Below are positions 49,101 through 52,100 of a stretch of 64,000 nt of DNA, piece after piece (positions within the stretch are counted from its first letter, which is position 1; each line of letters starts with the position of its first letter). A program made the translations under genes and the position numbers. Origin of the DNA: the human T2T-CHM13v2.0 reference genome, Homo sapiens; assembly GCF_009914755.1 (NCBI RefSeq), contig NC_060939.1; one strand, given 5' to 3'. The notes below the pieces were generated by a model. It was given only the letters and a program-made list of their open reading frames with translations. It did no database searches and was not told the origin of the DNA.

Positions 49101-52100
49101 GCAGGGTCCTTGTTGGCTCCAAGGAAACATACCACGTAAAAGGCAAGGAAGAGCTGCGAAGGTCCCTCTGAGGGCTTCCTCCGCTGTGTGGTCACCCCTG
49201 CCTTCTTCCTGGGTGCAGCCATATCCAGCCTGGGGAAGATCCCAGGCCCAGAAGCTAGAAGTCAAGGTGGGTAATTCCCACTCAGGCACACTCACTGTTA
49301 CCTCAGCTCCCAGGATACTTGTTAGTGGCTCCACCTGGCCCTACCCAGGGCTCTGATTGCCTTAGCAACCCGTCCGCCAAACCATACACACACCCTTCCA
49401 CCAGGATCTCAAACACATCTGGCCTCAGGGCAGGGTCCAAGGCACAGGCCCCAGGGCCACTTGGGAGGTAAAAGGCATCCTACTCACTTGACCTGCTCTC
49501 TCCCAGGGCCCCTGCTGCCACCCAGCTGGCTCAAGCCCCCCGCCCCCTCCTTCTGGAGGCCAGCAAACCTCAGAACCCATCCCCACATCTCCCTGAGGAG
49601 GGCAAGATGTCCCCTGTCCCCTACCCAAGATGCTCAGCGATTGACCTGCTGGATTCAGAAACCTAGGACCCCCCGCTCCACCCATCCCTGGGCCCACATG
49701 TGGGCAACCCGCCTGCCCCATGAGGAGTCCTAGTGGGGTGGGAGCACTAAGTGGGAGGGACTCCAGCTGGGCCTGGAGGGAGGACAGCAGGGGAACTGCT
49801 GTCGCCACCCCACCTAGGGCCATTCTGTGGCCGAGTGGATAACCAGGCAGGTCACACGCGGACAGCCCCTCTGGGCATGCAAGGCCTCTGACCACCTGAC
49901 CGCGTGGGGATGGTTCAGCTGGCCCAGGCCTCTCCCTTCTCCCCGAGCTCTGCGATGAGGCTGCAGGTCAAACTTGGGCCAGGAACTGTCAGACTCTGAA
50001 ACCAAGGCTGATTTACTGAGTTCCTGGGCCTCAAAAGACCAAGAATGTGTTTGTTTTCCCCTCTTAGGTAGAAAAATCCTTGCAACTTAACCCTAATGCT
50101 GTGTGTCTGGCTCATGGTGACTCAAGAAACAGCACTCCCGTGACCTCCAGGGTGACCACAACCCCTCACTCCTCTGCATCAGCATCAGGCCTGGCCGGCA
50201 GTCTCAGGAAAGAGGGCCAGGCAGAAAGAAGGAAGAAACAACAGGACCCTTTTCCCCCCTCGGTCTAACTGAGGCTCTGTCTCTCTCTCTGAGTCTCCCC
50301 AGAGGAGGCCTTGACACCTCCACTGGGGTGGGGATCACAGGCAGAGAATAAGGCCAGCATATGGCCTATGCCACCAGGGCTGTGGCTCAGGGTCTACTGC
50401 TAGAAACAGGCAACAAGCACCCCCACATACTCACTCGTCTCACAGTGGTTGCCCGCGTAGCCCTTAAGGCACGTGCAGGTGTACGAGGGGAAGACATCTC
50501 CTCGCACTTCTTGGGAAATCTCCTCGCATAAACCACCGTTGTGGCAGGGGTTTTTGGAACAGATATCTGGGGACAGAGACAGGTAAGATGAGCAGATGAT
50601 CAGGAAGGAGCTGGGGACACAGGTGAGAAGTAGCAGATGGGTCCAGCCCAAAAGGACCCTCCACTCAAACTCGCCCATTATCTCTTCCTCTCCCTCTTCC
50701 CCCGTGTGCTGGATGGAGCCTGAGTCCGCCTAGAGCCAAGGAAGTCCATGTGTAGGCGAATCGGCCCACATAAGGGAAGCGCCCAGCTTTCCAAGTGGCC
50801 TGGGAGTGTCCAGAAAAGTGCTGGCTGACAATGGCAGTGGTGCTGGGGACCACTGCCCACTGGTGGAAGAGCTGGCAGCTGGGGTCTGGAGAGGCAGGCA
50901 AGGTCCAGGGCAGGTCTCTTGGCAGCAGTTTGATTGCAAAGGAGGCCCATGAGGACTTTCAGGCAGGGGCAGTGGAAGGAAGCATTGTTCTGGCCCATTG
51001 AGCAGGTTCCGCCCACCAATTCAGGCACAGGTTGCAGTCACAGATGTCACCTCCAATGGCAGCCCTGACTCAGGAACAGCACGATGATCATCCAGGAAAC
51101 ACTGGGAGGGCCAATGACCATGCTAGGCCCCCGAGACAGAGAAATCAGATGCAGCGCAGGCCTCAAGAAGCCAAGGGGAAAGAGGCCAGCAAGTCCACAG
51201 ATGAGGAAGATTGCCCAACGCTCCAGAAGCCTGCATGGACCGTCACTGGAGGCATGATTTCTGCTGGGGAATTAGAAGTTCCCCAGAGGAGGGAATATTT
51301 GAGCTGGGTCTAGAAGACAAAGTAAGGGGGGTGCCAGACTGGGCAATGAGTAAAGAATGTTCCAAGAAAAGCAGATGCACAGAGGGTGTGGTATGTTGGA
51401 GCACAGTTAGATGCAGCTGGAAGGGTAGGCTGGGGCCAGACTGGGAGGGATCTGAAGAATGACAAGTTTAGTTTTTCATCCCGTAGAGCAGTGGCTTTTA
51501 ACCTTCCTTCACCCTCCTCACCATTGTCCACCAGGGGGGAGAAAAAATAAAAATAAAATAAAAAACAAGAAACAAGAAACAGAGATTCTCAAGTGTGAGA
51601 TGGGAGTGGGAAAGTCAGTTCCAATTGCGGGATGAAGAAGGCTGAAAAGGCCCATGTGCAGACATGCCGCTGAGCTCTCCCAGGGTGGGGAGCATCTGGT
51701 AGCTGCAGACAGGTCCCTCTGGCTGAAATGCAGAAATCCCACTGAAGAGGGTGAAGGTGGAGAGCAGGAGAGCATGGTGAGAGAGGAAGTCAGGGCAGAG
51801 GAGTGAAAAGGAAGGGTGATTTCAGAACCACCAGGGGGCAAGGGCTGGAGAGGCCACCAGGGCTTCTGGATGGGAACCTGGATGACAGATGTACACTATC
51901 AGCCCCGGTGGTGGAGAACACAGGAGAAGGAACAGGAGGGCCTGTCCTCAATCCCTTGACTCTGGTGGGTCGGCCGGGCCCAACAGGAGTCCTCTAGCCG
52001 ACATTAGCATCCCAGAAGGGCTGCCCCAGACCCTACACCCAAATCTGTCATTTGGAGCAAGACATGAGACATCTTTTTGCCTTGGCCGGGCATGGTGGCT

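What the first reader, a model, noticed from the sequence alone, without database searches (positions are those of the whole stretch)
50927..51050. Fossil exon for the lost first EGF domain of MFG-E8 in MFGE8 intron 1
Seen: on the - strand, GAG|GT GAC ATC TGT GAC TGC AAC CTG TGC CTG AAT [tggtg] GGC GGA ACC TGC ... TTC CAC TGC CCC TGC ... GGC CTC CTT TGC AAT CAA ACT reads [40 protein letters not shown]. It keeps the six EGF cysteines, has a frameshift after CLN, a GAG acceptor with no pyrimidine tract, and no donor. It sits about 360 nt upstream of the RGD-EGF exon, in the same phase. Established: mouse, pig and bovine MFG-E8 have two EGF domains (recalled mouse EGF1: GDFCDSSLCLNGGTCLTGQDNDIYCLCPEGFTGLVCNET), whereas human has one. 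Inference: the domain was lost by splice-site decay rather than deletion, so the loss can be dated.
Basis: partly seen in the sequence, partly recalled or inferred. Interest (0 to 1): 0.8.

Follow-up and report, generated by a model that had tools for sequence, protein, structure and literature searches.

The report
Dead EGF1 exon in human MFGE8
Intron 1 of the human MFGE8 gene still holds the broken, unspliced remains of the exon that gives other mammals, lemurs included, a first EGF domain, so humans lost that domain by exon decay and not by deletion.

Summary
On the minus strand, 51051-51019 reads [11 protein letters not shown]. Five extra bases follow (51018-51014). Then 51013-50927 reads [29 protein letters not shown].

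A profile of 80 distinct MFG-E8 EGF1 peptides finds this spot as the best hit in the six-frame window: 28.5 bits, against at most 13.9 in 40 shuffles. Lemur EGF1 finds it as the best of 112 scored candidates in the whole human genome (E 1.1e-6).

It shares four residues with lemur and loris that are rare in other placentals. Its upstream flank matches sequence that is coding in fruit-bat models (P about 1e-4). So it is the in-place orthologue, not a retrocopy or a repeat.

It is dead. It has a frameshift and a stop at 50961-50959 if spliced in. The acceptor is weak (GAG, 10 of 20 pyrimidines). There is no GT until 50860.

Whether splice-site decay caused the loss is not shown. Strepsirrhine models keep EGF1 and anthropoid models lack it, which places the loss on the haplorrhine or anthropoid stem.

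This is a known kind of event. I found no paper on this case. Interest is moderate.

The parts
51051..51052 (-). AG of the ancestral acceptor, in the context GAG|GT (G at -3), preceded by a poor pyrimidine tract
   Evidence: 10 of 20 pyrimidines at -23..-4, against 11-19 for the 18 annotated acceptors in the window. None of those 18 has G at -3.
51019..51050 (-). 5' piece of the fossil exon. With a preceding G it reads [11 protein letters not shown] (EGF1 cysteines 1 and 2, plus an extra Cys).
   Evidence: translation; 9.8 bits to EGF1 profile positions 1-11; tblastn matches to residues about 25-35 of orthologues.
51014..51018 (-). Net 5-nt insertion (tggtg) that shifts the frame by +2
   Evidence: Without it the two pieces sum to 40 residues, the usual EGF1 length.
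50927..51013 (-). 3' piece of the fossil exon: [29 protein letters not shown] (EGF1 cysteines 3 to 6, N-x-T sequon kept)
   Evidence: top hit of the window, 28.5 bits, profile positions 12-40; up to 58% identity, E 5e-9; best match in the human genome to lemur EGF1.
50917..50926 (-). Tail that corresponds to the last two codons plus one base of the ancestral exon (ETEK+G in other mammals). Human reads A-A-K plus A, probably with one extra codon. No GT follows.
   Evidence: Exon end inferred from the skipping isoforms P0027 and P0068. Sequence. No GT before 50860.
50861..50916 (-). Intron sequence collinear, in the fossil's downstream frame, with the 17-19 residue linker that follows EK in the lemur and loris models
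   Evidence: fixed-register ungapped scores of 12 and 13, P 0.003-0.02. The free local alignment was not significant.
50859..50860 (-). First GT downstream of the fossil (CCA|GTGGGC), within 1 nt of where the lemur-type extended exon would end
   Evidence: This is inference.
50959..50961 (-). TGA reached in the frame set by exon 1 if the fossil were spliced in
   Evidence: the open frame 50959..51069 ends there.
51053..51070 (-). Upstream intron flank. In the fossil's 5' frame, 51069-51052 read VRAAIG, matching the VRAATA insert of the fruit-bat models. An AG lies at 51070-51069.
   Evidence: score 16, P about 1e-4 against random 6-mers of the window.
50435..50566 (-). Annotated exon 2, the RGD-bearing EGF domain (EGF2 of other mammals), phase 1-1
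   Evidence: PF00008, E 1.4e-9. Hub annotation.
53890..53962 (-). Coding part of exon 1 (signal peptide), ending in phase 1
   Evidence: Hub annotation. (tblastn of the lemur and loris N-termini).

Best explanation
This is a dead exon: the in-place remnant of the ancestral 126-nt, phase 1-1 cassette exon that encodes the first EGF domain of MFG-E8 in other mammals.

Shown: it lies between the signal-peptide exon and the RGD-EGF exon, on the same strand and in the same phase. It is the orthologue of EGF1. It carries a net 5-nt frameshift, lacks a GT at the ancestral donor, and has a weak GAG acceptor. If it were spliced in, the frame set by exon 1 would hit TGA after 30 codons.

Inferred: EGF1 was already an optional, in-frame cassette, because EGF1-skipping isoform models exist in many placental orders. 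On the stem leading to anthropoids the EGF1-less form became the only one, and the exon then drifted neutrally. That drift produced about 12-14 amino-acid replacements, including changes at otherwise invariant sites, and at least one indel. Which lesion came first is unknown: splice site, frameshift or regulatory skipping. The fossil has no present function.
For: tblastn of 141 stored proteins against the window gave 205 of 4772 HSPs within 50850-51150. EGF1 residues about 34-64 of orthologues hit 51019-50927, the best being Marmota P0031 (58% identity, E 5e-9).

a profile of 80 distinct EGF1 peptides scored the fossil top of the six-frame window at 28.5 bits. Real EGF exons scored lower: ACAN 25.8 and 23.1, MFGE8 EGF2 18.1. 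The adjacent 5' piece scored 9.8. The best score in each of 40 block-shuffled windows averaged 8.9, with a maximum of 13.9.

lemur EGF1 plus linker searched against the whole human genome gave the fossil as the best of 112 scored candidates (40.3 bits, E 1.1e-6). The next best scored 33.3.

identity is 25 of 40 to Nycticebus and Marmota and 24 of 40 to Lemur. The fossil shares A22, S23, H25 and L29 with both strepsirrhines. Those residues occur in only 7, 6, 6 and 2 of 59 other placental sequences. Ten fossil-specific changes lie at conserved sites, for example G31V (0 of 59) and F32L (0 of 59).

the 18 nt upstream match the bat VRAATA insert (P about 1e-4); the 251-nt stretch is single-copy in the genome; splice-signal comparison.

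the Lemur and Nycticebus models have EGF1. The Aotus, Callithrix and Homo models do not. No anthropoid or tarsier protein appeared among the 61 candidates retrieved with the lemur EGF1 region.

One search, with names: at least 14 non-primate placental models join the signal peptide directly to EGF2.

The hub annotation lists no exon here in the exon table it gives for the 10 RefSeq transcripts.
Against: Pfam alone does not call the pieces an EGF domain. One search gave only EGF_DL_JAG at E 0.077, below its cut-off. PDB sequence search gave only E 7.8.

All six cysteines and the GGTC core survive although about a third of residues changed. The chance of this is roughly 6% if changes fell evenly (my arithmetic), so some period of constraint after other changes cannot be excluded.

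No primate DNA or RNA-seq could be examined. Absence of splicing rests on the annotation and on the sequence signals. The timing rests on predicted protein models, and a missing exon in a model is not proof of a dead exon in that genome.

The protein search is word-based, so an anthropoid model with EGF1 could have been missed.
Confidence: 0.93

Rival explanations
1. The segment is still spliced at a low level as a non-productive (poison) exon, using the GAG acceptor or the AG at 51070-51069 and the GT at 50860. It would add a premature stop and so regulate MFGE8 output.
For: An AG is retained at the ancestral acceptor and a second AG lies 18 nt upstream. A donor-like CCA|GTGGGC lies at 50860. 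A different MFGE8 pseudoexon, in intron 6, is detectably included in normal cells (PMC4482064, passages read), so the gene tolerates such events.
Against: The acceptor is weaker than all 18 annotated acceptors in the window, and G at -3 is seen in none of them. The hub's exon table for the 10 RefSeq transcripts lists no exon here. No RNA data could be examined.
Confidence: 0.06
2. The cysteine pattern is a chance EGF-like reading in GC-rich intron sequence.
For: Pfam and PDB sequence searches on the pieces alone are not significant.
Against: It is the top hit of the window with the EGF1 profile (28.5 bits, against a shuffle maximum of 13.9). It is the best hit in 3.1 Gb with lemur EGF1. The two pieces are adjacent and collinear, the position and phase are correct, and it shares residues specific to primates.
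Confidence: 0.005
3. It is a fragment of a retrocopy, or a duplicated EGF exon from another gene such as EDIL3, that landed in the intron.
For: tblastn extended weak alignments past the fossil into EGF2-like and C1-like parts of orthologues. The flank also loosely resembles the end of the signal peptide.
Against: Those extensions add only about 4 bits over 80 residues (dog: 41.2 bits against 45.1). At DNA level the flanks are no more like exon 1, the EGF2 exon or the first C1 exon than shuffles are (z -1.2, 0.1 and 0.3). The upstream flank matches intron-derived sequence in the bat models. The best matches are MFG-E8 EGF1 and not other EGF domains.
Confidence: 0.01

Closest known systems
EGF1 exon of Mfge8 in mouse, rat, cattle-like and other placentals, and in Lemur catta and Nycticebus coucang (proteins P0091, P0106, P0025, P0026 and others)
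   Same: It occupies the same place between the signal-peptide exon and the RGD-EGF exon, and the same phase. It has the same 40-residue domain length once the 5-nt insert is set aside. All six cysteines, the GGTC core and the N-x-T sequon are kept. Identity is 57-62% to the closest fifteen of the 80 orthologue sequences compared (38-62% over all 80).
   Different: The human copy is frameshifted, has no GT at the ancestral donor, has a GAG acceptor, and carries changes at sites that are invariant elsewhere (G31V, F32L, L27P). It appears in no annotated transcript.
Lineage-specific exon death that leaves a relic in the intron. This general class from comparative genomics is recalled from the literature and was not read here.
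   Same: An in-frame cassette exon that is optional in relatives becomes permanently skipped and then decays.
   Different: Here the relic removes a whole protein domain from a much-studied secreted protein. It explains a known difference between the human and the mouse reagent.
MFGE8 intron-6 pseudoexon, which a deep intronic variant can activate (PMC4482064, passages read)
   Same: It is in the same gene and is also intronic sequence with exon-like features.
   Different: That one lies in intron 6, has working splice sites and has no coding ancestry. The present one is in intron 1, has a coding ancestry and has broken signals.
EGF1 of the paralogue EDIL3 (PDB 4d90, seen)
   Same: It is the first, RGD-less EGF module ahead of an RGD-bearing EGF module.
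   Different: It is a paralogue, not an orthologue. No EDIL3-region hit came near the fossil's score. That the chromosome-5 hits there are EDIL3 is my reading of the place and was not checked.

Membership tests
MFG-E8 EGF1 exon (orthologue) | Lies between the signal-peptide exon and the RGD-EGF exon, on the same strand and in phase 1 | tested here: met
   with the hub annotation: exon 1 ends in phase 1, the fossil starts GT GAC..., and the EGF2 exon lies 360 nt downstream.
MFG-E8 EGF1 exon (orthologue) | More similar to EGF1 of MFG-E8 orthologues than to any other EGF module | tested here: met
   top of the window, above the ACAN and MFGE8 EGF2 exons; best of 112 scored candidates in the human genome.
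MFG-E8 EGF1 exon (orthologue) | Carries lineage-specific states of its own clade (primates) | tested here: met
   A22, S23, H25 and L29 are shared with Lemur and Nycticebus and occur in 7, 6, 6 and 2 of 59 other placental sequences.
MFG-E8 EGF1 exon (orthologue) | Flanking intron is homologous to the flank of the exon in other species | tested here: met
   upstream, VRAAIG against bat VRAATA, P about 1e-4; downstream against the strepsirrhine linker, P 0.003-0.02. These are protein-level proxies only, because no DNA of other mammals was available.
EGF-like domain (Pfam PF00008 and relatives) | Six cysteines in EGF spacing | tested here: met
EGF-like domain (Pfam PF00008 and relatives) | Score above the Pfam gathering threshold | tested here: not met
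   only EGF_DL_JAG at 13.5 bits (cut-off 27) for the 3' piece. This is expected for a split, decayed domain.
Dead exon (non-functional relic) | Reading frame is broken relative to the flanking exons | tested here: met
   a 5-nt insert, and TGA at 50961-50959 in the incoming frame.
Dead exon (non-functional relic) | Splice signals are lost | tested here: met
   no GT from 50926 down to 50861, and the acceptor is weaker than all 18 annotated acceptors.
Dead exon (non-functional relic) | Not present in mature mRNA | not testable with these tools
   Only the hub's annotation is available (no exon here in the exon table it gives for the 10 RefSeq transcripts). No RNA-seq tool was on hand.
Retrocopy or processed fragment | Flanks continue into neighbouring exons' sequence without introns | tested here: not met
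   z -1.2, 0.1 and 0.3 against exon 1, the EGF2 exon and the C1 exon.
Interspersed repeat | Many copies in the genome | tested here: not met
   the only match in the genome is the stretch itself. The tool skips very common words, so this is a weak test.

The most novel reading that the evidence does not exclude
The loss happened in two steps. First, in stem primates the canonical donor of the EGF1 exon was already replaced by a donor about 51-57 nt downstream. This gave an EGF1 exon with a Pro/Ser/Thr-rich tail that strepsirrhines still use. Human keeps the homologous tail and a GT within 1 nt of its end. Second, on the anthropoid stem this weakened, extended exon was dropped altogether. Under this reading the human fossil records a donor shift that came before, and perhaps predisposed to, the death of the exon.
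Probability: 0.35. Interest if true: 0.45.

Novelty: new member of a known kind. Interest (0 to 1): 0.38.

Why it matters
Human MFG-E8 (lactadherin) has one EGF domain and mouse or bovine MFG-E8 has two. This difference is repeated in the literature without explanation (passages in PMC4394995, and PMC12429292). It matters whenever mouse results or recombinant mouse protein are carried over to humans.

The fossil shows three things. The difference arose by death of a cassette exon that is still in place. The ancestor of all primates had the domain. The EGF1-less form probably existed earlier as a splice variant in placentals. Together these give a datable, testable case of domain loss through splicing.

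It is not surprising in kind, and anyone viewing a multi-species alignment of the locus would see it.

Tried and rejected
Pfam and PDB sequence searches on the fossil pieces alone gave nothing significant.

The retrocopy idea arose from long, weak tblastn extensions and was rejected by DNA-level flank tests.

A free local alignment of the strepsirrhine linker to the sequence downstream of the fossil was not significant (P 0.08-0.2). Only the fixed-register test was, so the extended-exon idea is kept as suggestive.

For a time I thought the human EGF2 exon acceptor had shifted by 6 nt. This was wrong. The skipping isoforms show that EK belongs to the EGF1 exon, and that human D-I-C lines up with G-P-C.

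A search for other fossil exons (EGF3 of marsupials and reptiles, the Pro/Thr-rich exon) in the MFGE8 introns found nothing credible at E up to 10.

Seven literature searches found no paper describing this fossil. PMC2742659, a SED1/MFG-E8 review that might discuss domain evolution, is not held.

The tarsier model P0114 is partial and says nothing about EGF1.

Full report
**1. What is in the sequence**

On the minus strand, the 3' end of the upstream intron sequence reads ...cattggag. It is followed by GT GAC ATC TGT GAC TGC AAC CTG TGC CTG AAT.

- With a preceding G, which is what exon 1 would supply, 51051-51019 translate to [11 protein letters not shown].
- Five bases (tggtg, 51018-51014) then break the frame.
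- From 51013 to 50927 the sequence reads [29 protein letters not shown], followed by AA.
- The annotated RGD-EGF exon starts 360 nt further on, at 50566, in the same phase.

**2. More than chance**

The pieces on their own are too short and decayed for Pfam or the PDB. One search gave EGF_DL_JAG at E 0.077. One search gave E 7.8. Comparison with orthologues is decisive.

The protein database holds vertebrate MFG-E8 sequences. One search found 571 at E up to 1e-60 and listed 120.

- **tblastn.** I ran the 141 proteins then stored against the window. Of 4772 HSPs, 205 fell within 50850-51150. EGF1 residues about 34-64 of orthologues align to 51019-50927, and residues about 25-35 align to the 5' piece. 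The best hit was Marmota P0031 at 58% identity and E 5e-9.
- **EGF1 profile.** I extracted EGF1 with a cysteine-spacing pattern. It matched 113 of 149 proteins, giving 81 distinct peptides. I dropped P0022 because the pattern had caught its third EGF. Proteins whose EGF1 departs from the pattern, such as P0060, were not included. The profile of the remaining 80 peptides ranked the fossil's 3' piece first in the six-frame window (28.5 bits, profile positions 12-40). Genuine EGF exons scored lower: ACAN 25.8 and 23.1, MFGE8 EGF2 18.1. The 5' piece scored 9.8 bits for positions 1-11. Forty windows shuffled in 500-nt blocks gave a best score of 8.9 on average, with a maximum of 13.9.
- **Whole genome.** Lemur EGF1 plus linker searched against the 3.1-Gb human genome returned this place as the best of 112 scored candidates (40.3 bits, E 1.1e-6). 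The next best scored 33.3 bits.

**3. It is the orthologue, in place**

- **Shared primate residues.** The fossil is 25 of 40 identical to Nycticebus and Marmota and 24 of 40 to Lemur. It shares A22, S23, H25 and L29 with both strepsirrhines. These residues occur in 7, 6, 6 and 2 of 59 other placental sequences. I sorted sequences into 'placental' from the names. Unnamed records were counted as placental by similarity.
- **Upstream flank.** Fruit-bat models (Rousettus P0064, Pteropus P0095) carry a six-residue insert, VRAATA, just before GDFCD. The 18 nt just upstream of the human fossil read VRAAIG in the same frame (score 16, P about 1e-4). So the upstream intron flank is homologous too.
- **Not a retrocopy.** At DNA level the flanks do not resemble exon 1, the EGF2 exon or the first C1 exon (z -1.2, 0.1 and 0.3).
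- **Not a repeat.** The 251-nt stretch has no second copy in the genome. This is a weak test, because the tool skips very common words.

**4. It is dead**

- The 5-nt insert shifts the frame. Read from exon 1, the frame ends at TGA 50961-50959.
- The acceptor keeps its AG but in the context GAG. It has 10 of 20 pyrimidines at -23..-4. This is below all 18 annotated acceptors of ACAN, HAPLN3 and MFGE8 in the window (11-19), and none of those has G at -3.
- All 17 annotated donors are GT. The fossil has no GT from its end down to 50860.
- Ten residues differ at positions that are nearly or fully invariant elsewhere, for example G31V, F32L and L27P, each 0 of 59. This is what relaxed constraint would give.
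- The hub's exon table for the 10 RefSeq transcripts lists no exon here. I could not examine RNA data.

**5. Correction to the exon end**

Models that skip one EGF exon fix the boundaries.

- Horse P0027 joins ...AAS directly to GPC.
- Dog P0068 joins ...CNETEK to A-CAMPLG.

In human this tail reads A-A-K plus A (50926-50917), probably with one extra codon, and is followed by GA rather than GT.

**6. When, and how**

- **Taxa with EGF1.** The Lemur catta (P0025) and Nycticebus coucang (P0026) models have EGF1.
- **Taxa without it.** Aotus (P0005, a cluster of 119 sequences), Callithrix (P0004) and human (P0008) go straight from the signal peptide to the RGD-EGF.
- **Search for exceptions.** A search with the lemur EGF1 region retrieved 61 candidates. 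The only primates among them were the two strepsirrhine clusters. That search is word-based and could miss a decayed copy. The tarsier model is partial.
- **Bracket.** The loss therefore falls after the strepsirrhine split and, on the evidence of gene models, before the split of New World and Old World monkeys.
- **Rough clock.** About 12-14 replacements over roughly 91 non-synonymous sites give about 0.13-0.15 per site. From recalled, unverified neutral branch lengths, the human lineage has about 0.12 since the primate ancestor and about 0.055 since the platyrrhine split. The figure fits an early loss. The count is small and the rates are from memory.

At least 14 non-primate placental models join the signal peptide directly to EGF2 (names). 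They come from Equus, Crocuta, Glossophaga, Chinchilla, Sorex, Molossus, Dasypus, Dugong, Cavia, Eptesicus, Tamandua, Pipistrellus, Eschrichtius and Dipodomys.

If these predicted isoforms are real, EGF1 was already an optional in-frame cassette. An EGF1-less protein then existed before the exon died, which makes the loss easy to tolerate. This step is inference. The order of the lesions cannot be read from one genome.

**7. A further layer, suggestive only**

After ...CNETEK the two strepsirrhine models carry an extra 17-19 residues before EGF2. In a fixed register these align with the human sequence that directly follows the fossil, in the fossil's downstream frame. Scores were 12 and 13, with P 0.02 and 0.003 against shuffles and 0.008 and 0.003 against random windows. 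The free local alignment was not significant.

This suggests that strepsirrhines read past the canonical donor to one about 51-57 nt downstream. The first human GT (50860, CCA|GTGGGC) lies within 1 nt of the corresponding end. If so, the donor shift predates the loss. Lemur DNA is needed to check this.

**8. Literature**

Seven full-text searches found only the bare statement that human MFG-E8 has one EGF domain and mouse or bovine has two (passages in PMC4394995, and PMC12429292). They also found a different MFGE8 pseudoexon, in intron 6 (PMC4482064, passages). A SED1/MFG-E8 review that might treat domain evolution is not held. Subscription journals are mostly outside the library, so prior description cannot be excluded.

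**9. Verdict**

It is one more example of a known kind of event, exon death leaving a relic, in a medically studied gene. Interest is moderate.

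Noticed in passing
proteins P0027, P0028, P0033, P0036, P0038, P0039, P0041, P0045, P0047, P0050, P0051, P0057, P0065, P0069: Predicted isoforms in many non-primate placental orders join the signal peptide directly to the RGD-EGF, so EGF1 looks like an optional cassette exon outside primates. For the two shrews (Sorex P0038, Suncus P0048) only EGF1-less forms were listed, which may mark independent losses.
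   Followed up: partly
proteins P0025, P0026 against window 50861-50916 (-): The lemur and loris models carry a Pro/Ser/Thr-rich linker of 17-19 residues after ETEK. It is collinear with the human intron sequence just past the fossil, which suggests an exon extended to a downstream donor in strepsirrhines.
   Followed up: partly
proteins P0145 (dog) and P0146 (giant panda): UniRef entries named HAPLN3 contain the MFG-E8 EGF1. P0146 also has V-set and Xlink domains. They look like MFGE8-HAPLN3 read-through models. The two genes are neighbours on the same strand in this window.
   Followed up: no
window 43046-43174 (-): Residues 161-202 of a Puma model (P0144) match this intronic stretch at 49% identity (E 5e-6). 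It lies inside an alternative exon listed by the hub (42826-44805). It probably reflects intron retention in the model together with conserved intron sequence.
   Followed up: no
window 50678-51037 (-): The fossil's downstream frame stays open for 119 codons, which is long for intron sequence. The part beyond the strepsirrhine-linker match shows no credible homology to anything.
   Followed up: partly
window 48020-50434 and 51100-53885 (-): No relic of the third EGF exon (present in marsupials, monotremes and reptiles) or of the Pro/Thr-rich exon of rodent long isoforms was detectable in the MFGE8 introns.
   Followed up: yes
protein P0068 (dog isoform X2): This model skips the RGD-EGF exon and keeps EGF1, the mirror image of the human arrangement. 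Both EGF exons are in-frame cassettes.
   Followed up: no
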